Assembly (NCBI GenBank): GCA_046154545.1
Contig: JBJXGC010000087.1
Span: 1-12,774 of the forward strand
DNA: 12,774 nt
Origin: Dehalococcoidia bacterium
GTDB lineage: Bacteria > Chloroflexota > Dehalococcoidia > Tepidiformales > Tepidiformaceae
Direction: 5' to 3'
Part shown: piece by piece, positions 3,431 to 12,352 of the stretch
Layout of the letters: every line of letters begins with the position of its first letter
Position numbering within the stretch: position 1 is the stretch's first letter
Program-made: the position numbers and the translations under genes
Notes under the pieces: model-generated
Told to the model about the DNA's origin: nothing
Database searches by the model: none
Seen by the model: the letters and a program-made list of their open reading frames with translations, nothing else

Positions 3431-5473
3431 TTACTGCTGCGGCGGCGGCGGCGCCACGGGTGACGGCAAGACCGGCAGGTTCGCCGTCCGGTTGCCACCG
3501 AGGGCCTGGGCGAGGAAGGCTGCGAAGATACCTCCGCCGCCGTCTGCGCCGCCACCGACCATGATGTCAGGCGTGATGCGGAGGCCTGCGGCGGCAATCG
3601 CCTTGGCGACTTCGATCCCGAAGAGGTTCTGCTGCCCGACGGCTTCCTGCTGCTTGTCGTAAGCCTCGGCCGTGGCGTCGCCGACGGCGCGGATCCTGGA
3701 CCCCTCGGCGTTGCCCTCGAGTTCGACGGCCCGGGCCCGCCCCTCGGCCTCGATGATCGTCTTCTGCCTCGTCTGTTCCGAAATCTGGACACCGATCTGG
3801 GCGGCGACCAATTCGATCTGCTTGTCGGCCTGGGCGCGGGTGTTCTCGGTCGCGATGCGCTGCTGCTCGGAACGCTGCTGCTCGATGAACATCGCCTGCT
3901 GCTGAGCAGCGATCACGCGTTTGGTCTGGATGTCCATCAGCTCCTTGGGCAGGATGATCTGGGAGATGAGGACACGCACGCACTCAACGTGGTACTTCTC
4001 AAGCTCCTCCCGCGCCCGGGATTCAGCTTTCTCCTGTTCAATGGCGCGGTCCTGCATGAAGGCCATGGCTTCCGTCGAAGAGGCCTGGTTGCGGAAGGAG
4101 GAGTCGATCATCGGGTGGATAACGTGGTCCACGAGGTTCTGGACGGAGCCGATCTTCGCCACCATCAAGGGCGCCTGATCCGGCCGGACGCGGATGATGA
4201 CCTTCACGCTGACCTTCATTTCGAACCCGTCACGGCTGATGACCGAGAGCGGGTTGAAGAGCTGCACACGTTGACCGGTCGAATCCTGGGCCGGGGCCTG
4301 CTGGCCTTCGGGCACGAAGTTCTCTTCAGCCCAGTCGACTGTGAGGTTGGTCGTCGGGATGACGTAGGCGATATACGCCCAGCGGTTGAGGTAGTAGACG
4401 CCCGGGCCGGCAACGTCACGCTGGATGCCGCGGAAGCCCGTGGGCACCACGTACCGTTCCTGCGCGTCGAGGAGCCGCTCCTGGTCCGGGATCTGCGGCT
4501 CCGGGCCAACGTTCGAGACGAGGACGGCCACCTCACCGCGCTGGATGACGGCGACGTTGTCGAGCTTCACGTCGAACATGAGCGGGTTGATGTAGTAGGT
4601 GCCCGGCTTAAGCAGGTCGAACTGCGGGCCGCGTTGGCCACCGCTCGCGAGGAAGGCTGACGCGTCCTGGAAGTCGTTATGCCCCAGGACGCCCGCCGCG
4701 ACGAGCTCGCCGCCGGGGAGCGGCGTGCCATCCTTGGCGGTCACGAGGCCGACCTGGTTCGCCTGGACCACCGCGGCCGACATCAGTTCGACGTTGAACA
4801 TGTCGAGGTTGAGGCGATAGCGCCCGGGGAGAATGAGGTCGATCTGCGGCCCGCGTTGGCCGCCGTTCTGGATGAAGGCCTCTCCGTCCTGGTAGCTCGC
4901 ATGGCCCTCAGTGGCGCGGGCGAGGAGCCGGCCTGGGGCCAGCGGCTCGCCATCGCGGGCGGTCACGAGGCCGACGGTGCTCGCCGGGATGACCAGCGCC
5001 TTTTCGACGCGGATGCGGAAGAGGTAGGTGTTAATCCGGAACTGCCCCGGCGGAAGGATGTCGATCTGGGTGCCCTTTTGGCCGCCGTTGCGGAGAAAAC
5101 CCTCACCGTCCTGGAATGAGTCGTGGCCGGTGACGCGGCGGGCGAAGATGCGCCCCGGGTCCAGCGGGCGCCCGTCGATCGACTCGATCATGCCCACTTC
5201 GTCTTCGCCGATGGCGATCATGGGCGCTTTGCGGACCTTGTAGAGGAAGGGGATGAGGACGTGCAGGCCCGGCGCGAGGACGCGCGCCTGGATGCCGACC
5301 TCGCCGGCTGTCGCAATAACGCGGCCCTCGGGCAGGCCGCGGCCGATGTAGCGCCGCTCCAGGATGCCAACTTCGGTCCCACCGATGTTGACCAGAGCGC
5401 CCACCAGAGAGGCGAGCAGCCACAGGACGAGGAGGCCGCCGATGACGGCGCCGATCACGATGAGGAATGGCAT
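3431..5473 (-). CDS. Flotillin/SPFH (band-7) family membrane protein (YqiK/FloT-like) with an N-terminal TM helix. It carries an inserted block of tandem 74-aa repeats, a coiled-coil flotillin domain, and a Gly-rich, Pro-rich C-terminal tail.
   Basis: 680 aa. TM segment: MPFLIVIGAVIGGLLVLWLLASLVGALV. The SPFH N-terminal strands (VGILERR.G...HVLIPFLYKV) and the SPFH core (LSVISRDGFEMKVSVKVIIRVRPDQAPLMVAKIGS...ILPKELMD...) resemble E. coli YqiK (AFVRTGLGG...VMPIFHEII...EFYVRVKPD). There is a long Ala/Glu/Gln-rich coiled coil. The C-terminal LRITPDIMVGGGADGGGG resembles YqiK IRIVDMGGMGGVGNGG. ATG at 5471-5473. Confidence 0.85.
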   Translation of the reverse strand: MPFLIVIGAVIGGLLVLWLLASLVGALVNIGGTEVGILERRYIGRGLPEGRVIATAGEVGIQARVLAPGLHVLIPFLYKVRKAPMIAIGEDEVGMIESIDGRPLDPGRIFARRVTGHDSFQDGEGFLRNGGQKGTQIDILPPGQFRINTYLFRIRVEKALVIPASTVGLVTARDGEPLAPGRLLARATEGHASYQDGEAFIQNGGQRGPQIDLILPGRYRLNLDMFNVELMSAAVVQANQVGLVTAKDGTPLPGGELVAAGVLGHNDFQDASAFLASGGQRGPQFDLLKPGTYYINPLMFDVKLDNVAVIQRGEVAVLVSNVGPEPQIPDQERLLDAQERYVVPTGFRGIQRDVAGPGVYYLNRWAYIAYVIPTTNLTVDWAEENFVPEGQQAPAQDSTGQRVQLFNPLSVISRDGFEMKVSVKVIIRVRPDQAPLMVAKIGSVQNLVDHVIHPMIDSSFRNQASSTEAMAFMQDRAIEQEKAESRAREELEKYHVECVRVLISQIILPKELMDIQTKRVIAAQQQAMFIEQQRSEQQRIATENTRAQADKQIELVAAQIGVQISEQTRQKTIIEAEGRARAVELEGNAEGSRIRAVGDATAEAYDKQQEAVGQQNLFGIEVAKAIAAAGLRITPDIMVGGGADGGGGIFAAFLAQALGGNRTANLPVLPSPVAPPPPQQ
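4532..5197 (-). repeat. Three in-frame tandem copies of a 222-bp (74-aa) unit inside the flotillin CDS. A fourth, degenerate copy lies at about 4313-4531.
   Basis: Nucleotide anchor CTGCGG(G/C)CCGCGTTGGCC recurs at 4622 and 4844 and, degraded, at 5066, exactly 222 bp apart. The protein units are aa 93-166, 167-240 and 241-314, with consensus VGlvtA(K/R)DG.PL.pG.l.a....GH..fQDge.F...GGQrGpQiDlL.PG.Y.iN..mF.V.l.....V. Unit 4 (aa 315-387) retains VAVLVSNVGPEP...GPGVYYLNRWAYIAYVI. Confidence 0.8.
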
Positions 5474-5886
5474 GGTAAGTCAGGAACTCCGCGGCGAAGA
5501 TGCGTCACCGCACGGCAAAGGCCCGGTGGGCGCCGATTAGCGCCCTACAACCGATCAGTACGAATGATACCAGATCGGCTTCGTGGCGGGCTATGCATCC
5601 CTACACCGGAGCTATGGATGAACGGTGGCCGCTGCCCTGACTATTCGGTCACGAAGATCTCCTGGCGACAGCGCTGTACCTCCATGGCAGGGTCCCCTGG
5701 CGTTCGCGGCCGTCCCGGCGGCCGGCTTCCGACGGGATATCCTGCCGCACACCGGCACGCGCGGCACCCTCTCCACCGCAGCCTGGCGGTGACAACGTGG
5801 CCGGCCCCAACCCAGCACTGCAGCCGTTCCGGCCGGAGTGGTATCCTTCATTACTGCACAGGCCTCGGCCCTGGCTGGAGTGACGT

Positions 5887-6891
5887 ATGCGATTCGTCGT
5901 GTTTGGCGCGGGCGCCGTTGGCGGTGTCGTCGGTGGCCGGTTGGCCCAGGCGGGCCACGATGTCGCCCTGATTGCGCGGGGCGAGCACGGCGCCGCCATC
6001 CGGGCTCGGGGCCTGACCATCGAATCACCGGCGGGCGCCGCGACGGTGACCGTCGAATGCGTCGATCGGCCGGCCGACCTGGGCTTTCAGGCTGACGATG
6101 TGGTCATCCTGGGGATGAAGACCCAGGACACGGCGGCGGCCCTGGACGACCTCCTCGAAGCGGCCGGCGACGCCATCCCCGTGATCTGCGCCCAGAACGG
6201 GGTAGAGAACGAGCGTATCGCCCTCCGCCGCTTCGCCCACGTGTATGGCATGCCCGTGCGGCTCCCGGCGACGCATCTCGAACCGGGTGTGGTACAGGCC
6301 GATTCGGCCCCGTATTCGGGCGTGCTCGACGTTGGCCGCTACCCCGAGGGCGTCGATGACACCTGTGCGGCCGTCTGCGCGGCGCTCGAACGGTCCACAT
6401 TCAGCGCCCGTCCCGAGCCAAAGGTCATGCGCCACAAATACAACAAACTCCTCGGCATGAATTTGAGCAACGCTCTCCAGGTCATCGCCGGCGATGAAGC
6501 TGCGGGCGCCGCGGACCTCATGCGGCGCGCCCGCGCGGAGGCTGCTGCCTGCTATGCCGCCGCCGGCATCGACTGCGCGACCGAGGAGGAGGACCGTATC
6601 CGCCGCGGTGACCTGATCAAGGTGGGGACCATCGAGGGACGCCGCCGGGGCGGCGGTTCCACCTGGCAGAGCCTCGCCCGCGGCAAGCGGGTGCTCGAAG
6701 TGGACTACCTGAACGGCGAGATCGTCATGCTGGGCCGGCTCTGGGGCGTCGCCACCCCCGTGAACTACGCGCTCCAGCAGGTCGCCAACCGCCTGGCGCG
6801 GGAAGGGCAGCCGCCGGGAGCAATGACGCTGAGGGAGTTCGAAGCACAGGTCCAGCCGATCACCGCAGGCGAAACCCGTGAGTCAGACTGA
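5887..6891 (+). CDS. 2-dehydropantoate 2-reductase (ketopantoate reductase, ApbA/PanE) family NAD(P)-dependent oxidoreductase
   Basis: 334 aa. N-terminal Rossmann motif MRFVVFGAGAVGGVVGGRLAQAGHDVALIARG. The KPR-family middle block contains K...N...N (MRHKYNKLLGMNLSNALQ). GGAG at 5877-5880 precedes ATG 5887. Whether it is a true PanE or a paralog cannot be decided from the sequence. Confidence 0.8.
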   Translation: MRFVVFGAGAVGGVVGGRLAQAGHDVALIARGEHGAAIRARGLTIESPAGAATVTVECVDRPADLGFQADDVVILGMKTQDTAAALDDLLEAAGDAIPVICAQNGVENERIALRRFAHVYGMPVRLPATHLEPGVVQADSAPYSGVLDVGRYPEGVDDTCAAVCAALERSTFSARPEPKVMRHKYNKLLGMNLSNALQVIAGDEAAGAADLMRRARAEAAACYAAAGIDCATEEEDRIRRGDLIKVGTIEGRRRGGGSTWQSLARGKRVLEVDYLNGEIVMLGRLWGVATPVNYALQQVANRLAREGQPPGAMTLREFEAQVQPITAGETRESD

Positions 6892-6947
6892 TGCCGAAGT
6901 GGCCCTGGAAACGCCGCCCCCGCTCAGGCCCACCGGAGTCGTCTCGC

Positions 6948-7715
6948 GTGGCTGAGGCACACTTCGCCCTCAGCGACCGCGGGCAGCGCCGCGCCACGAA
7001 CCAGGACCGGGCCCTGACGAAGGAGCTCCGGGATGGCTACACCCTCCTTATCGTCGCCGACGGTGTAGGTGGCGCCGCTGGCGGCGAAACGGCCAGCTCG
7101 GAGACCGTGGCCGCGATCGTCACTTCGCTCGAGCAGGAGTGGATCGGCGACCCTGAACGGGCCCTCCTCGATGCCGTCACCGCCGCCAATCAGCGTGTCA
7201 GGGAGATCGCCAGGGCCGACCCCAAGATCGCGAACATGGCAACCACGCTCGTCGCGGCGCTGATGGCCGGGCGCGAAGCATGGATCGTGAGCGTCGGCGA
7301 CAGCCGCGCCTACCTCGCCCGCGATAGCACGCTTGAGGCCCTGACGGAGGACGACAGTTGGGTCGCCGAGCAGTTGCGCGCCGGTATCCTCTCCGAGGCC
7401 GAGGCCGCCAGGAGCCCCTACCAGAACGTTGTCACGAAAGGGATCGGCGTGGAGGAACAGGTCACCCCCCTGGTCATCGGCCGCACACTTCAGCAGGGCG
7501 AAACGCTGCTCCTCTGCTCCGATGGCCTCTACCGCGTCGTCAACGACACCGACATCGCCAGGACCCTTCAAAACCGGACGTTGCGAGTGGCCGGCGAGAT
7601 GCTCGTCAAAATGGCGAACGAGGCGGGGGGCCCGGACAACATCTCCGTCGCGCTCTATCGCCACGCCACTGCGGGGAACGACGATACGACGGTGCGGGCG
7701 GTCATCGGCCGGTAG
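6948..7715 (+). CDS. PP2C-family (PPM) serine/threonine protein phosphatase, soluble
   Basis: Metal-binding motifs: SDRGQRRATNQDRA, LLIVADGVGGAAGGETAS, WIVSVGDSRAYL, LLLCSDGL, GGPDNISVALY. I favour the GTG at 6948 (GGAG at 6934-6937, about 10 nt upstream), which gives VAEAHFALSDRG... as in PstP/Stp1-type enzymes. The ORF track's ATG at 6891 overlaps the upstream stop (TGATG) and would add a basic, Pro-rich 19-aa extension. Confidence 0.8.
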   Translation: MAEAHFALSDRGQRRATNQDRALTKELRDGYTLLIVADGVGGAAGGETASSETVAAIVTSLEQEWIGDPERALLDAVTAANQRVREIARADPKIANMATTLVAALMAGREAWIVSVGDSRAYLARDSTLEALTEDDSWVAEQLRAGILSEAEAARSPYQNVVTKGIGVEEQVTPLVIGRTLQQGETLLLCSDGLYRVVNDTDIARTLQNRTLRVAGEMLVKMANEAGGPDNISVALYRHATAGNDDTTVRAVIGR

Positions 7716-7735
7716 CAGGGGCCGCGCACCGGGCG

Positions 7736-8752
7736 TTATCCCTCCTCGGCTTCGGGGGGGTGCTCTTCCCAAAACACGGGCGTGAGGACCTGGGCGCCGC
7801 GGAAACCTTTTAGCGTCACCTCCCGCCCTTCGCCGAAACGGAATTCGCCCGCCACCGATACCAGTTCACGGAGCAGGGACGAGATCAGGATCTGCCCCCC
7901 ATGGGCCTCTCCCATCACTCGCGCCGCGAAACTCACCGCCGACCCGAAGATGTCGTTCTCGTCCCAGAGGACTTCGCCCACATGGAGGCCCATGCGCACC
8001 CGCACCGGCCCGAAGTCGCTGGTTGCGCCGGCGAGCCGGCGCTGCCCCTGGACGGCGCAGCCGATGGCATCGCGGGCGCTGGCGAACAGCACCAGAAAGC
8101 CATCACCGATCCGCTTCGCCTCGCGGCCGCGGAACTCGCGAAACGCCTCGCGAAGGACAGCGTTGTGGGCGTTGATGACCTGGAACGCATCCCGCTCACC
8201 GAGCTCGTTCACCATCGAGGTAGACCGCTCGATGTCCGTGAACATGATGGTGAGCGTCCCCCCGGGGCCCAGGTCCTGTCCCTGCCAGATGCCGCGCAGG
8301 CCACGTCCCGAGAGCGGGCCCTCGTTCGTGTGTGGGCGGGTGTCGTGGTCGGCCGGGAAAACGACGGTGCCGGCCGCCGACCGATCACCATGCACGTCGA
8401 TCGTGACGTCAGCCACGGCGATGCTGTCACCCGGGTTGAGTGCGGTCGGTGCCGTCACGGGTTGGCCGTTGATCGTGACCGGGTTGCGGCCGCCGAGGTC
8501 GGCAATGCGCCAGCCGCCGTCGCCGTCCGGTTCGACCCGGAAATGGCGGCGCGAGACGTACGGACTCGCGAGCTGGACGTCACAGCCAGCGTCACGCCCG
8601 AAGACCACAGCGCTCGATTCGAGCACGGCGTCGAGGGGCGATTCGCCAGGGATGTTGATAGTGAGCGTCAGTTGCATTTCAGGTGTAGCCGCGACCATAA
8701 GAGGATAGGGAGGGACGCGACCGGCCACAAACGACACTCCTTTGCCTGTCAC
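7736..8752 (-). CDS. FHA-domain-containing class III adenylate/guanylate cyclase
   Basis: 338 aa as tracked; the start may instead be an internal GTG or ATG giving MQLTLTINIPG. N-terminal FHA: VVFGRDAGCDVQLASPYVSRRHFRV...RIADLGGRNPVTINGQPV...LNPGDSI, with the GR, SRxH and NG motifs. C-terminal nucleotide cyclase: TIMFTDIERSTS...EAKRIGDGFLVLFAS...VRMGLHVGEV...DIFGSAVSFAARVMGEAHGGQILIS, with both metal-binding Asp residues, the Lys and the AAR Arg. The usually conserved transition-state Asn of the VN-AAR motif is Ser (VSFAAR). Confidence 0.85.
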   Translation of the reverse strand: MTGKGVSFVAGRVPPYPLMVAATPEMQLTLTINIPGESPLDAVLESSAVVFGRDAGCDVQLASPYVSRRHFRVEPDGDGGWRIADLGGRNPVTINGQPVTAPTALNPGDSIAVADVTIDVHGDRSAAGTVVFPADHDTRPHTNEGPLSGRGLRGIWQGQDLGPGGTLTIMFTDIERSTSMVNELGERDAFQVINAHNAVLREAFREFRGREAKRIGDGFLVLFASARDAIGCAVQGQRRLAGATSDFGPVRVRMGLHVGEVLWDENDIFGSAVSFAARVMGEAHGGQILISSLLRELVSVAGEFRFGEGREVTLKGFRGAQVLTPVFWEEHPPEAEEG

Positions 8753-10884: not shown

Positions 10885-10912
10885 GAGAGGGGCCGCATCT
10901 GCGGCCCCTCTC
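10885..10912. terminator. Perfect 12-bp-stem hairpin GAGAGGGGCCGC-ATCT-GCGGCCCCTCTC between the convergent AOR and small-protein genes. A short TTT follows on the minus-strand transcript.
   Basis: Exact inverted repeat read from the sequence. It lies immediately 3' of both convergent CDSs. The U-tract is weak (3 U on the minus-strand read, none on the plus). Confidence 0.55.
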
Positions 10913-10935: not shown

Positions 10936-11320
10936 CTACGCAGCAAATATCGCCGCCACCGTCTTGAGAGCAGTGGCGACAGCCGGAGCGTGTGGCAGAA
11001 GCGCCTTGAACTCCTCCCAGATCGCTCTGAGCACGGCCCGTTTCCGGCCCGGCTTGCCCGCCTCTTCCGTGAACGTTGTCAGAAGTTCCGCCGCGTCGCG
11101 ATTCGGATGCCGCGACAGGTGGGCCGCAAGCTCGAGGAGCGCCGCCTGGACAGCCGGTCCGTGCAGCTCCCCGACGGCTGTCAACGCGGCGGGCGAGAGG
11201 ACGCTGTCCACGTTCACCTGCCTGACGTGCCCCACACTGCCGCTGCCAACATTGGCACCGGGAGAATTCTGGATGGTGACCGGCGCATTTACATTCGTTA
11301 CCCGGTTCACATGTGCCATG
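10936..11320 (-). CDS. Hypothetical small protein (128 aa): an Asn/Gly-rich N-terminal tail followed by a predicted helical domain
   Basis: AGGAG lies 8 nt upstream of the ATG at 11318-11320 (CAT on the plus strand). The product reads MAHVNRVTNVNAPVTIQNSPGANVGSGSVGHVRQVNVD...LLELAAHLSRHPNRDAAELLTTFTEEAGKPGRKRAVLRAIWEEFKALL.... Codons are less GC-biased than in the neighbours. The opposing plus-strand ORF (10781-11686) translates to an R/S/C-rich non-protein-like string. I recognise no family. Confidence 0.5.
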
Positions 11321-11353
11321 CGGTATGCTCCTGACGTGGCCGTTGATGGAGAT

Positions 11354-11860
11354 TCACCCTGCTCGACCACTTCCAACATTGGCGCCAGCCGAATTCGAAA
11401 CCGTCACCGGGGCGTTAATGTTCGTCACGTACTTTTCGCCATTTTTGACGTTAATGGTCACCTTTCCGGCGTAATCCCTCGACCGCATCACCGTTCCCAG
11501 TTCGTTGATAATTGCATCGACGATCTGTTCGTCCGTAGCGACTCCCACTTTTCCCGTGCCAGAATTCGTTTCAATTCTGACCGCGTACCTCTTGCGGCGG
11601 AGGAGCGCAGCAACGAGGAGGAGTACGAACAGAAAGCCTACCCCTGCCGCCCCGATAATCGGTGCAGCTATCTCTTCAGTCGCTGAGGGCACGTACACGG
11701 CCGCGCCCACCACCAAGAGCATCAGGACGTACAACCAGAGGTTGTTCCGGCGCACCCGGTACTTGCTTATGCTCGTCAAGTTCGCGACCTGGAAGATCTG
11801 ATGACCCCAGACCATCACGTTGTTCTCGATGCTGATAACGCCGTCATCGCGGTCGGCCAT
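11354..11860 (-). CDS. Hypothetical membrane protein (168 aa): short N-terminal domain, two TM helices, and a C-terminal domain ending in the same Asn/Gly-rich motif
   Basis: ATG at 11858-11860 with a GAGGGTGG SD-like sequence upstream. The product reads MADRDDGVISIENNVMVWGHQIFQVANLTSISKYRVRRNN. Two hydrophobic spans follow (LWLYVLMLLVVGAAVYV; IIGAAGVGFLFVLLLVAALL) and then RRKRY. The remainder is ...KVTINVKNGEKYVTNINAPVTVSNSAGANVGSGRAG. The region 11380-11700 is visibly lower in GC than the rest of the window. Confidence 0.6.
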   Translation of the reverse strand: MADRDDGVISIENNVMVWGHQIFQVANLTSISKYRVRRNNLWLYVLMLLVVGAAVYVPSATEEIAAPIIGAAGVGFLFVLLLVAALLRRKRYAVRIETNSGTGKVGVATDEQIVDAIINELGTVMRSRDYAGKVTINVKNGEKYVTNINAPVTVSNSAGANVGSGRAG

Positions 11861-12007
11861 AGAGTGCCACCCTCAACGCGCCTCCAGCCTTAGCGAGGCC
11901 CAGGTGCTTGAGCACGTTGCAGCCGCCAGTTTGGCCCGCACGCGCGCAGATGTCTATGGCGCATATCACACATCCCTGCGCACGTGCGTGGCGGTAGCCT
12001 CCCGAAC

Positions 12008-12352
12008 CTACGTCCTCTCCAGCCACGGGAACGCCGGCGGCGGGCCGGACACGTCCCAATCGGCGTAGGTCTCGACCTCCGTGTGGGCGACGAGCGGCGG
12101 ACGTTCGGCGATCAGTTCGCGGCCAGGCCCGTCGGCATAGAGCCGTTGGAACTCGTCACGCATCTCCGCTTCCGTTTCGTGGATGGTGAGCCAGATGCCG
12201 GCATCCTCGCCCGCAGCGTTCGTGGCCGCATATGGCCCCCCGGCGCGGCGGACGCCAGCCGCGTCCCAGAGGTCGAGGATGCGCTTCGCCCAGGCCCAGT
12301 AGGCGTCGGTCATTCCCGGGGCAATCGTGGCCCGCACAACGCGCAGGTACAC
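12008..12352 (-). CDS. Small alpha+beta-barrel protein, probably an antibiotic-biosynthesis-monooxygenase (ABM) / Dabb-like fold
   Basis: 114 aa. The GTG start abuts the cupin stop codon (…GTGGAG TAG GTG TAC…). YLRVVRATIAPGMTDAY...GIWLTIHETEAEMRDEF...LVAHTEVETY fits the ferredoxin-like ABM pattern. The assignment is by pattern only. My nucleotide count near 12007-12010 is off by one relative to the ORF track; I report the track coordinates. Confidence 0.45.
   Translation of the reverse strand: MYLRVVRATIAPGMTDAYWAWAKRILDLWDAAGVRRAGGPYAATNAAGEDAGIWLTIHETEAEMRDEFQRLYADGPGRELIAERPPLVAHTEVETYADWDVSGPPPAFPWLERT

What the first reader, a model, noticed from the sequence alone, without database searches (positions are those of the whole stretch)
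10936..11860. Uncharacterised two-gene module in a lower-GC islet: a 2-TM protein and a small helical protein sharing a duplicated ~20-aa Asn/Gly-rich motif (C-terminus of one, N-terminus of the other)
Two adjacent minus-strand genes (11354-11860 and 10936-11320) have weaker GC bias than every other gene in the window. Segments such as 11441-11500 are about 50% GC, against a background near two-thirds. This suggests a horizontally acquired or accessory insert.

The motif is duplicated at protein and DNA level.
- The membrane protein ends ...GEKYVTNINAPVTVSNSAGANVGSGRAG.
- 33 bp downstream, the small protein begins MAHVNRVTNVNAPVTIQNSPGANVGSGSVG....
- At the DNA level a ~57-bp segment is repeated at about 70% identity: 11246-11303 and 11373-11429, both starting CCAACATTGGC and 127 bp apart.

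Neither protein matches a family I recognise.
- The first has a short beta-looking cytoplasmic N-terminal domain (VISIENNVMVWGHQIFQVANLTSISKY), a TM hairpin and a ~70-aa C-terminal domain.
- The second is mostly helical.

A shared peptide tail on a membrane protein and its soluble neighbour could be a common recognition or degradation tag, a docking motif, or a footprint of partial gene duplication. The pair sits at the 3' end of a same-strand cluster (cupin, ABM-like, 146-bp gap, these two) and ends at a strong hairpin at 10885-10912.
Basis: seen in the sequence. Interest (0 to 1): 0.65.

Follow-up and report, generated by a model that had tools for sequence, protein, structure and literature searches.

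The report
Split membrane protein keeping a duplicated junction motif
These two small genes are the halves of a membrane protein that is a single chain in other microbes, and both halves have kept a copy of the short junction peptide, which probably lets them re-associate; the second half belongs to a widespread protein module that no curated family describes.

Summary
Two co-directional genes are present: A (11354-11860, 168 aa) and B (10936-11319, 127 aa; the finder's start was 1 nt off). They share a 24-aa Asn/Gly/Val-rich motif, at the C-terminus of A and the N-terminus of B. They also lie in the window's deepest GC trough.

A is not an orphan. It is a Pfam DUF6232 protein with a two-helix membrane hairpin. 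B has no family in Pfam, NCBIfam or the PDB.

An exhaustive search showed that B (motif plus a five-helix bundle) is a promiscuous module. It always sits at the C-terminus, in many bacterial and archaeal phyla. Five relatives carry DUF6232 and the B module in one polypeptide. Six other metagenomic loci have the same split as here. In the five whose junction DNA could be read, both halves keep the motif and the two genes are translationally coupled.

The copies lie 3n+1 nt apart in three of the four measured pairs, as an out-of-frame tandem duplication would leave them. Synonymous sites between the window's two copies are saturated while the peptides stay 75% identical, so both copies are under selection.

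Best reading: an ancient gene fission in which the motif acts as a docking element between the halves. An amyloid-signalling (BASS-like) role is possible but untested. The biological role is unknown.

The parts
11354..11860 (-). Gene A: DUF6232 membrane protein, 168 aa
   Evidence: ORF. Pfam PF19744, E 9.7e-12, 45.8 bits against a cut-off of 27.4, covering aa 9-121. The protein is identical in three independent assemblies.
11738..11860 (-). A aa 1-41: N-terminal segment, inferred cytoplasmic. Its sequence (VISIENNVMVWGHQIFQVANLTSISKY) looks beta-like but this is not established.
   Evidence: Aligns with the N-termini of the fused relatives, 'LEITNxTLxxxxxxxQIxN'. The flank next to TM1 has 4 K/R and no D/E. 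The low-confidence single-sequence model drew a helix here.
11600..11737 (-). A aa 42-87: transmembrane hairpin (TM1 42-59, acidic loop 60-66, TM2 67-87)
   Evidence: 19-aa hydropathy peaks of 2.06 and 2.75. Both outer flanks are rich in K/R and the loop is acidic, which by the positive-inside rule puts both termini in the cytoplasm.
11429..11599 (-). A aa 88-144: membrane-proximal cytoplasmic segment with the conserved 'IETNSGTG' box, a helix and beta strands leading to the motif
   Evidence: Colinear with the fused proteins P0007, P0014 and P0021. The single-sequence AF2 model gives low-confidence strands at 133-139 and 142-148.
11357..11428 (-). Motif copy 1 (A aa 145-168: VTNINAPVTVSNSAGANVGSGRAG), at the C-terminus of A
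   Evidence: It lies outside the Pfam DUF6232 match. In other split pairs, the motif positions (2-25) of the B-module HMM hit the A-like tails.
11320..11353 (-). 34-nt spacer between the A stop codon and the B start, with an AGGAG Shine-Dalgarno site at 11328-11332
   Evidence: Read from the sequence. The gene callers of NCBI and Logan both start B at 11319.
10936..11319 (-). Gene B: soluble protein of 127 aa, made of the motif plus a five-helix bundle
   Evidence: Translation. No hit in Pfam, NCBIfam or PADLOC. 34 homologs in the exhaustive HMMER search. No 19-aa stretch reaches TM-level hydropathy; the maximum is 1.38.
11230..11301 (-). Motif copy 2 (B aa 7-30: VTNVNAPVTIQNSPGANVGSGSVG)
   Evidence: The AF2 model built with an alignment leaves aa 1-35 unstructured, pLDDT mostly below 50 (block means 47-58).
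10942..11211 (-). B aa 37-126: five-helix bundle ending in a conserved 'LP' plus an amphipathic C-terminal helix
10885..10912 (-). GC-rich hairpin after B, probably a terminator shared with the convergent aldehyde ferredoxin oxidoreductase gene
   Evidence: Folding energy -37.6 kcal/mol, z = -4.9.
11861..12007 (-). 147-nt gap upstream of A; the presumed promoter region is unresolved
   Evidence: No sigma-70-like site and no Rfam family.

Best explanation
A and B are the two halves of a protein that is a single polypeptide in other lineages. That protein has three parts: a DUF6232 membrane anchor, a short beta-prone junction motif, and a five-helix bundle. In the anchor, the N-terminal segment, the TM hairpin flanks and the post-TM segment all face the cytoplasm.

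Shown:
- The fused architecture exists in other organisms.
- The split recurs in six further loci. Both halves keep the motif in the five whose junction DNA could be read.
- The motif copies lie 3n+1 nt apart in three of the four pairs measured (L008: 74 nt).
- Both copies are under purifying selection.
- The two genes are translationally coupled.

Inferred origin:
- The split arose by a tandem duplication of the junction that was not a multiple of three. This put the second copy out of frame.
- In the 'MGDK' pairs, the first gene's stop codon is the second copy's ATG-GGT-GA read one base off. The conserved Met of the motif became the start codon of the second gene.

Inferred mechanism:
- The motif is a homotypic strand-pairing element.
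- The copy on A's cytoplasmic tail pairs with the copy on B's N-terminus, so the soluble bundle docks onto the membrane anchor and the original two-part protein is rebuilt non-covalently.

The biological role is not established. My weak guess is a self-contained accessory membrane module of the stress or conflict type. The B module's relatives match the C-terminus of a candidate phage-defence protein, and one pair sits among mobile-element and abortive-infection genes.
For: 1. Fusion. 5 of 33 B homologs carry Pfam DUF6232 in the same chain (best E 4.6e-15). The A+B concatenation is colinear with them end to end, and the only extra material is about 30 aa, the second motif copy.

2. Recurrent split.
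- A DUF6232 gene lies immediately upstream of a B-like gene in L008/L042-45 (19 contigs), L009/L010, L012, L041 and a JGI contig. L011 begins inside an A-like tail.
- In every pair with DNA, the A-like tail ends in the motif that starts its partner. An example is '...VMGDKFSSIKDAVIATHGAIAKGGGHG*' followed by 'MGDVFKNVSDSVIATRGSVASRG'.
- The motif positions of the B-module HMM hit these tails.

3. Selection.
- Between the window's two copies pS = 0.81 (saturated) and pN = 0.13.
- Across lineages whose A domains share 31-44% identity and whose B domains share 32-44%, A-tails match 10-12 of 15 positions among three lineages (7-8 for L012) and B-heads 8-11 of 15.
- Strain variants of A show 3 synonymous and 0 non-synonymous SNPs.

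4. Co-divergence. The window's copies match each other at 11 of 15 positions but match all other copies at only 1-5 of 15. Its nearest relative, L041, has the MGDK type on both sides.

5. Origin. Copy spacing is 73, 73, 74 and 127 nt; three of the four values are 3n+1.

6. Coupling. A GGAGG made of the tail's Gly-Gly codons lies 5-7 nt before B's start in four pairs (L008 has a G-run instead). The window has AGGAG in its spacer.

7. Same compartment. A's tail is cytoplasmic by the positive-inside rule, and B has no TM segment or signal peptide.

8. Module behaviour elsewhere. A stand-alone module gene sits next to a larger gene that also ends in motif plus module (L037).
Against: - No direct evidence of an A-B interaction. 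No multimer prediction was possible.
- AF2 leaves the motif unstructured, but B's motif is divergent within the alignment, so this says little either way.
- In the MGDK pairs, within-pair identity (7-9 of 15) is lower than between orthologous copies. Strict sequence matching between partners is therefore not required.
- The window's high within-pair identity could reflect an independent, later duplication or an old gene conversion rather than co-evolution.
- The defence link is thin. B itself has no PADLOC hit. Family members hit only the C-terminal ~85 positions of PDC-M14B, with E from 3e-6 to 1e-3. No partner component was found. Most contexts are housekeeping.
- There were no hits in phage, plasmid or viral collections.
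Confidence: 0.6

Rival explanations
1. Amyloid-type signalling pair, like HET-s/NWD2, Bell/NLR BASS pairs or Bab/Agp. In this reading the motif is a prion-like cross-beta segment. One partner, once triggered, templates the fold onto the other and switches on a membrane-acting effector.
For: - The gene layout matches the published signature. The genes are collinear and adjacent or overlapping, with a ~24-aa motif at the C-terminus of the upstream product and the N-terminus of the downstream one. Fused 'all-in-one' forms exist in other genomes (for the literature; here).
- Composition fits. The two window copies together hold V9, N8, G8, A6, S6 and T4, with a single charged residue (Arg166 in the A copy). 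BASS motifs are enriched in N, G, V, Q and I.
- The family consensus has conserved Asn and Gly residues.
- The motif is unstructured in the monomer model.
- One partner is membrane-embedded.
- Module relatives touch a candidate defence family.
Against: - There is no NLR/STAND, TPR-nuclease or other sensor. B is a 90-aa bundle.
- Neither partner is Bell/HeLo-like.
- The core strings of both motif types are absent from the BASS1-10 datasets and tables. Only the pentapeptide NAPVT recurs, in one cyanobacterial cluster.
- In fused relatives the motif is a single internal linker, so templating between chains is not needed for function.
- The MGDK version carries several charged residues.
- Contexts are mostly housekeeping.
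Confidence: 0.17
2. The tail copy on A is a leftover of the duplication that split the gene. Under this reading A and B now work independently, or B alone carries the function.
For: The out-of-frame tandem duplication model automatically leaves a copy on each side. No interaction has been demonstrated.
Against: - A leftover would decay. Instead, the tail is kept in all six pairs with sequence.
- It is more conserved than the A domain itself: 10-12 of 15 positions among three lineages, against 31-44% domain identity.
- In the window, dN is far below a saturated dS.
- Only the last ~15 nt are constrained by B's ribosome-binding site and start codon.
Confidence: 0.1
3. The motif is a shared address read by a third party, such as a protease, chaperone, secretion or modification system, rather than a partner-partner contact.
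For: The same peptide sits at an exposed terminus of two co-expressed proteins. It is low in complexity and probably flexible.
Against: - It is C-terminal in one protein, N-terminal in the other and internal in the fusions. That is unusual for degrons or export signals.
- No conserved neighbouring gene could read it.
- Both proteins are predicted to be cytoplasmic-facing.
Confidence: 0.08
4. The two ORFs are one gene broken by an assembly or sequencing frameshift.
For: B's frame is +1 relative to A's, and a longer alternative B ORF (from 11379) overlaps A's end.
Against: - Three independent assemblies from different runs encode the identical A, and both that reach B show the same two-ORF structure.
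- B has its own Shine-Dalgarno site.
- Six other, highly divergent loci (39-67% GC) show the same two-gene structure.
- The A frame keeps reading the motif correctly through to 'GANVGSG'.
Confidence: 0.02

Closest known systems
Pfam DUF6232 (PF19744), a family of unknown function
   Same: A scores above the curated threshold over aa 9-121 and has the family's N-terminal segment, TM hairpin and post-TM segment. NCBI already names this protein 'DUF6232 family protein'.
   Different: The Pfam domain ends before the motif. The link of a DUF6232 subgroup to a C-terminal helical module, fused or split, is not part of the family description. No paper in the searchable library mentions DUF6232.
Amyloid signalling gene pairs: fungal HET-S/NWD2, bacterial Bell/NLR BASS1-10, E. 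coli Bab/Agp BASS11 (Dyrka et al. 2020, bioRxiv 10.1101/2020.01.06.895854; Ibarlosa et al. 2024, bioRxiv 10.1101/2024.11.07.622273)
   Same: A short N/G/V-rich motif is shared by the C-terminus of the upstream product and the N-terminus of the downstream product of collinear, tightly spaced genes. Fused forms exist in other genomes. One partner acts at the membrane.
   Different: There is no NLR or other sensor protein. There is no Bell/HeLo-type domain. The motif is not found in the BASS datasets. It is an internal linker in the fused forms. Amyloid formation is untested.
PADLOC candidate defence system PDC-M14, component B
   Same: 6 of 10 B-module proteins from other organisms match the last ~85 positions of the PDC-M14B profiles, with E down to 2.8e-6. 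The helical bundle is therefore homologous to the C-terminus of that candidate defence protein.
   Different: B itself has no PADLOC hit. The N-terminal ~170 positions of PDC-M14B are not matched. No PDC-M14A-like partner was found near any locus tested. As far as I know the system is only a candidate, and no paper on it was found.
Gene fission / 'Rosetta stone' pairs with translational coupling
   Same: One lineage encodes a single chain and another encodes two adjacent, overlapping genes. The stop and start codons overlap and a ribosome-binding site is embedded in the upstream coding sequence.
   Different: Ordinary fissions cut the chain once. Here the junction peptide is duplicated and conserved on both products for a long time.
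Homotypic adaptor domains of prokaryotic conflict systems (Death-like and effector-associated domains; recalled from Kaur, Burroughs, Iyer and Aravind 2020, not checked here)
   Same: The same small element is present on two neighbouring gene products. It is also joined promiscuously to many unrelated domains (TPR, pentapeptide repeats, wHTH, membrane anchors).
   Different: In the window pair only a ~24-aa peptide is shared, not a folded domain. No NTPase or enzymatic effector is associated with it.

Membership tests
Pfam DUF6232 (gene A) | Score above Pfam's gathering threshold for PF19744 | tested here: met
   45.8 bits against a cut-off of 27.4, E 9.7e-12, profile positions 1-113 of 117. 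The precomputed annotation agrees.
Pfam DUF6232 (gene A) | Small protein with a central pair of transmembrane helices | tested here: met
   Hydropathy peaks at aa 42-59 and 67-87, with K/R-rich flanks.
BASS/HET-s-type amyloid signalling pair | The same ~20-25-aa motif at the C-terminus of one product and the N-terminus of the product of an adjacent collinear gene | tested here: met
   A 145-168 and B 7-30 are 18/24 identical, P about 1e-8. The arrangement recurs in five further sequenced pairs.
BASS/HET-s-type amyloid signalling pair | The N-terminal-motif partner is an NLR/STAND or other large sensor (NB-ARC/NACHT with repeats; TPR-nuclease in Bab/Agp) | tested here: not met
   B is 127 aa, made of the motif plus a 90-aa helical bundle, with no Pfam or NCBIfam domain.
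BASS/HET-s-type amyloid signalling pair | The C-terminal-motif partner carries a Bell/HeLo-like or other recognised effector domain (TIR, CHAT, hydrolase) | tested here: not met
   A is DUF6232 only. No such domain occurs in either protein.
BASS/HET-s-type amyloid signalling pair | The motif belongs to a described family (BASS1-11, HRAM, sigma, PP) | tested here: inconclusive
   String search of the BASS1-10 datasets: MGDKF, GDKFEN, IINRS, IVNRS and NVGSG are absent, and only NAPVT is found, in cluster C07. The profile HMMs, grammars and BASS11 could not be run.
BASS/HET-s-type amyloid signalling pair | The motif forms amyloid fibrils or prion-like foci, and the receptor side seeds the effector side | not testable with these tools
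   Needs peptide ThT, Congo red and EM assays, or GFP-foci assays.
PADLOC PDC-M14 (candidate defence system) | The protein matches the PDC-M14B profile | tested here: not met
   B has no hit even at E up to 1. Only more consensus-like relatives match, and only through their C-terminal module.
PADLOC PDC-M14 (candidate defence system) | A PDC-M14A partner gene is adjacent | tested here: not met
   Neighbours in the window and in L020, L024, L037, L041 and L042 gave no PDC-M14A hit.
B module (undescribed 'MGD-motif + five-helix bundle' family defined here) | Leading motif, helical domain with conserved A, F, E, L, W and P positions, and location at the extreme C-terminus | tested here: met
   34 hits in the exhaustive search. 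Alignment A2. 20 of 20 genome loci confirmed at E 1e-22 to 1e-43, with the module always ending the protein.
Single gene broken by a frameshift error | The two-ORF structure is absent from independent assemblies and from relatives | tested here: not met
   Both independent assemblies that reach B, and six divergent loci, all show two ORFs.

The most novel reading that the evidence does not exclude
The 'MGD-motif + five-helix bundle' is an undescribed module found across many phyla of Bacteria and Archaea. In this reading it works through templated beta-assembly between two forms. The long form is an anchor or sensor domain that carries the motif. The short form is a free motif-plus-bundle protein.

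The short form would be supplied in one of three ways: by a split gene (as in this window), by a separate adjacent module gene (L037, L029), or by internal translation initiation at the conserved Met inside fused genes. On this reading the window's pair is a minimal, NLR-free relative of amyloid signalling systems, with a membrane-anchored seed and a soluble partner.
Probability: 0.15. Interest if true: 0.8.

Novelty: new variant of a known kind. Interest (0 to 1): 0.55.

Why it matters
If the motif does re-join the halves, this is a natural split protein that carries its own zipper. A single out-of-frame tandem duplication would have turned one gene into a translationally coupled pair and provided the docking peptides in the same step. 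That is a clean and testable route for gene fission.

The work also puts a structure and an evolutionary context on one branch of a family of unknown function, DUF6232. It defines a promiscuous C-terminal module that is absent from Pfam and NCBIfam, occurs in at least 15 bacterial and archaeal lineages, and has a remote tie to a candidate phage-defence protein.

The layout is the one used to discover amyloid signalling motifs, but here there is no NLR. Testing these peptides would show whether that mechanism extends to simpler membrane-anchored pairs.

The apparent internal ribosome-binding site at the module's Met suggests that many of the 'fused' genes also make a free short form. If so, annotation currently misses a hidden layer of gene products.

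Tried and rejected
- Word-indexed homolog search of A and B, including A at E up to 10: only self hits.
- tblastn of A and of a consensus-like module against plasmids and phages: no match.
- Hand-made pattern for B's close subgroup: 0 hits in genome contigs. It gave 4 hits in metagenome contigs; the two I inspected lie in unrelated ORFs (chance matches), and the other two were not inspected.
- Broad pattern in viral contigs: 0 hits.
- AF2 of A without an alignment: pLDDT 49, unusable.
- Rfam on the whole window: nothing. Sigma-70 promoter scan upstream of A: nothing.
- Literature searches for DUF6232, 8xMP and PDC-M14: nothing relevant. The weak 8xMP, KASH and DUF2304 hits to A's TM region are sub-threshold.
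- The two TM-hairpin genes between module genes in L029: Pfam does not support them as DUF6232.
- Search for a PDC-M14A partner next to module genes: none found.
- The longer 147-aa start for B (11379): rejected. The 11319 start has the Shine-Dalgarno site, both gene callers chose it, and it places the motif at the N-terminus as in all relatives.
- Recent duplication or gene conversion as the source of the repeat: rejected because synonymous sites are saturated.
Full report
**1. What is in the window**

Two co-directional minus-strand ORFs are present.
- A spans 11354-11860 and encodes 168 aa.
- B spans 10936-11319 and encodes 127 aa. The finder placed B's start at 11320, one base too far, and translating from there gives the wrong frame.
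- An AGGAG site at 11328-11332 lies 8 nt before B's ATG.

The shared peptide is real. A 145-168 (VTNINAPVTVSNSAGANVGSGRAG) aligns with B 7-30 (VTNVNAPVTIQNSPGANVGSGSVG), with 18 of 24 residues identical. The local score is 97, against 29 +/- 5 (maximum 54) in 2000 shuffles. At the DNA level there is a 62-nt direct repeat at 11240-11301 and 11367-11428. It is 71% identical and the copies are 127 nt apart.

The GC trough is the deepest in the window. All 300-nt and 500-nt windows below mean - 2.5 sd start at 11070-11550. GC3 is 0.70 for A and 0.74 for B, against 0.84 +/- 0.04 for the ten other genes. The hairpin at 10885-10912 folds at -37.6 kcal/mol, z = -4.9.

Three Logan assemblies from separate sequencing runs carry the same gene order and encode the identical A. 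Two of them also hold B: one identical, one with three substitutions. The few SNPs in A are all synonymous. The two-ORF structure is therefore not an assembly artefact. NCBI labels the source a Dehalococcoidia MAG.

**2. What the two proteins are**

A is a member of Pfam DUF6232 (45.8 bits against a cut-off of 27.4, aa 9-121).
- It has two hydrophobic helices, at aa 42-59 and 67-87.
- Both outer flanks are rich in Lys/Arg and the connecting loop is acidic. By the positive-inside rule the N-terminal segment, the post-TM segment and the C-terminal motif all face the cytoplasm.
- The motif lies outside the Pfam domain.

B has no match in Pfam, NCBIfam or PADLOC and has no transmembrane segment. 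The word-indexed search of 5.8 billion proteins found only A and B themselves. The exhaustive HMMER search of 1.84 billion representatives found 34 relatives of B.

**3. The key result: A and B are one protein elsewhere**

Five of the 33 aligned B relatives carry DUF6232 in the same chain: P0007, P0013, P0014, P0021 and P0032. The A+B concatenation aligns colinearly with them through every element: the N-terminal segment, the TM hairpin, the 'IETNSGTG' box, a helix, beta strands, the motif and the bundle. The only surplus is about 30 residues, which is the second motif copy.

**4. The split recurs, and both halves keep the motif**

The stand-alone relatives closest to B each sit directly downstream of a DUF6232 gene. 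This holds for L008 and L042-45 (19 contigs), L009/L010, L012, L041 and one JGI contig without DNA. L011 starts inside an A-like tail.

In all five sequenced pairs, the DUF6232 protein ends with the motif that opens its partner:
- '...VMGDKFSNIKDAVIATRNAVAKGG...' then 'MGDKIENISNSVFATRGG...'
- '...VMGDKFTNIRDAVVATRSSVATGGRHG*' then 'MGDRIENIHGSVIATRGG...'
- '...VMGDKFSSIKDAVIATHGAIAKGGGHG*' then 'MGDVFKNVSDSVIATRGS...'

My B-module HMM hits these tails through its motif positions. The loci range from 39% to 67% GC, so the arrangement is old and widespread.

**5. How the split probably arose (inferred)**

The copy-to-copy distance is 73 nt in L009 and L012 and 127 nt in the window, all 3n+1. 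In L008 it is 74 nt, next to a G8 run. A tandem duplication of that length inside a fused gene throws the second copy out of frame.

In the MGDK pairs the first gene's stop codon is the second copy's ATG-GGT-GA read one base off. The conserved Met of the motif serves as the new start. The tail's Gly-Gly codons supply GGAGG 5-7 nt upstream of that start in four of the five junctions; L008 has a G-run instead. One mutational event can therefore produce a translationally coupled pair with the junction peptide on both products.

**6. Both copies are under selection**

- Between the window's two copies, synonymous sites are saturated (pS 0.81) while pN is 0.13. The DNA repeat simply reflects the conserved peptide and is not a recent duplication.
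- Among the MGDK pairs, A-tails match each other at 10-12 of 15 registered positions in three lineages (7-8 for L012). B-heads match at 8-11 of 15. The flanking A and B domains share only 31-44% and 32-44% identity.
- A decaying remnant would not behave like this.
- In those pairs, orthologous copies resemble each other more than their own partner does (7-9 of 15).
- The window is the exception. Its copies match each other at 11 of 15 positions and everything else at 1-5 of 15, although its nearest relative (L041, whose B domain is 56% identical) has the MGDK type on both sides. In the window's lineage both copies therefore changed together. Co-evolution, an old gene conversion or an independent re-duplication could each explain this, and I cannot tell them apart.

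**7. The wider family**

A degenerate pattern on the near-invariant positions retrieved 20 loci from species-representative genomes. All were confirmed at E 1e-22 to 1e-43.
- Bacterial lineages: Acidobacteriota, Bacteroidota (including Spirosoma endophyticum DSM 26130), Armatimonadota, Verrucomicrobiota, Cyanobacteriota, Desulfobacteria and Alphaproteobacteria.
- Archaeal lineages: Halobacteria, Bathyarchaeota, Nitrososphaerales, ANME-1 and Methanosarcinales.
- The module always ends the protein and always opens with '[VI]MGDxFxNIxNSTIINRS'.
- The N-terminal regions differ: TPR, pentapeptide repeats, MarR-like wHTH, a CDC48_2-like domain, and mostly regions with no family.
- NCBIfam has nothing for these proteins.
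- Six of ten members match the C-terminal ~85 positions of PADLOC's candidate defence component PDC-M14B, with E from 3e-6 to 1e-3. B itself does not match, and no partner component was found.
- Contexts vary. L009 is housekeeping (rpsU, def, asd, rpsI, rplM). L042 has a transposase, T4SS fragments, a Gp49/HTH toxin-antitoxin pair and an AbiJ/Abi_C gene. The cupin and 114-aa genes next to A in the window are not conserved partners.
- There were no hits in viral, phage or plasmid collections.

**8. Mechanism**

I commit to the following. The motif is a homotypic strand-pairing element. The copy on A's cytoplasmic tail pairs with the copy at B's N-terminus, docking the soluble bundle on the membrane anchor and restoring the two-part protein.

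The evolutionary statements are well supported: the fusion, the recurrent fission, and the retention of both copies under selection. The docking step is an inference. Overall confidence is 0.6.

The main rival is an amyloid-signalling pair. The layout and composition match the published signature. However, there is no NLR-type sensor and no Bell-like effector. The motif strings are absent from the BASS datasets apart from the pentapeptide NAPVT, and the motif is a plain internal linker in the fused forms. I give that rival 0.17. The neutral-remnant, third-party-tag and frameshift-artefact readings rank lower, for the reasons above.

**9. A lead seen on the way**

The Met of 'MGD' is conserved inside the large fused proteins.
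- In 9 of 18 such ORFs an SD core 4-mer lies 4-16 nt upstream. Other internal Mets show this in 9 of 93 cases (Fisher p = 2e-4). Examples are AAGGAGGTTGTTATG and GAGGGAGGTCGTCATG.
- The Glu codon upstream is GAG in 10 of 10 cases, where gene-wide usage predicts 4.5.
- Most ORFs that lack the signal are from Bacteroidota, which as far as I know do not rely on SD sites.
- The sequences are not phylogenetically independent, and the conserved Glu-Val residues confound the first test.
- Taken at face value, the fused genes may also release a free module from an internal start. That would make 'long form plus free short form sharing the motif' the common theme. It would also cover the window's split pair and the adjacent stand-alone and large module genes in L037.

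**10. Verdict**

The finding is real. A is a known DUF. B is the founding member, for curation purposes, of an undescribed module family. The conserved fission with a duplicated junction peptide is a new variant of the paired-motif and gene-fission themes. The biological function remains unknown.

Noticed in passing
L024 around 4840, L027, L014 around 3690, L016, L030, L032 (module start inside large ORFs): A strong SD-like sequence (for example AAGGAGGTTGTTATG) sits just upstream of the conserved Met that opens the module inside fused genes. It occurs in 9 of 18 cases against 9 of 93 other internal Mets (p = 2e-4). The upstream Glu codon is GAG in 10 of 10 cases, against 4.5 expected. This suggests internal translation initiation that yields a free ~105-aa module.
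   Followed up: partly
L013 2018-2691 compared with L041 1964-2819: L013 is a deletion variant of the intact L041 pair. The A-like ORF runs out of frame after 'IETASGSG...IDHLV', and the B-like gene has lost the first part of its motif. It is either a decaying copy or an assembly error in a related population.
   Followed up: partly
L037 5001-6685 (also L038-L040; 16 contigs): A stand-alone 103-aa module gene is followed 12 bp later by a 453-aa gene. That gene's C-terminus is a second, divergent motif-plus-module ('EVVLGDKFENIYNSTVINRS'). The Met is replaced by Leu there.
   Followed up: partly
L029 4196-7687 (Nitrososphaerales MAG): Three module-bearing genes lie within 3.5 kb. Two genes between them (5222-5920 and 5927-6382) have strands, a TM hairpin (in the first) and an 'IINIKAATGALTF' box that recalls A's layout. 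Pfam does not call them DUF6232.
   Followed up: partly
L042 2101-7355: The L008-type split pair lies beside a DDE_3 transposase, TraG/T4SS fragments, SSB, a Gp49 + HTH_37 toxin-antitoxin pair and an AbiJ_NTD3/Abi_C gene. This is a context typical of mobile elements and defence islands, unlike the housekeeping context of L009.
   Followed up: no
L008 510-531 (and the same junction in L042-L045): A G8 homopolymer sits just before the A/B overlap. It gives a 74-nt copy spacing and a 16-nt overlap, instead of 73 nt and 8 nt. The same 16-nt overlap is seen in all five loci fetched for this pair, so it is not a one-off read error, but it could be a slippage-prone site.
   Followed up: no
window 11091-11165 (B helical domain), variant in L002: One strain variant carries 7 SNPs within 75 bp, 3 of them non-synonymous (L52R, R74G, A77T). 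The rest of the 2.5-kb overlap has only 2 SNPs. It looks like a small recombination patch.
   Followed up: no
BASS cluster C07 sequences in the supplement of PMC8086366: A cyanobacterial BASS family ends in '...FNAPVTFNN', which shares the pentapeptide NAPVT and flanking pattern with the window's 'N[IV]NAPVT[VI]xN'. The match is too short to be significant by itself.
   Followed up: partly
It directly abuts the cupin gene, with stop and start adjacent at 12352/12353.
   Followed up: no
window 6891-8752 and 3431-5473: A PP2C phosphatase gene is followed by a convergent FHA-adenylate/guanylate cyclase gene. A 680-aa SPFH/Band-7 protein with internal repeats lies further upstream. This is a Ser/Thr-phospho signalling cluster and appears unrelated to the finding.
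   Followed up: no
L020 2119-4449 (-), last ~25 residues: The 776-aa protein next to a module gene in Marinilabiliaceae JC017 matches only the extreme C-terminal ~25 positions of the PADLOC E2, E1-E2 and PDC-S12 models (E about 1e-5). This is a short shared C-terminal element of unknown meaning.
   Followed up: no
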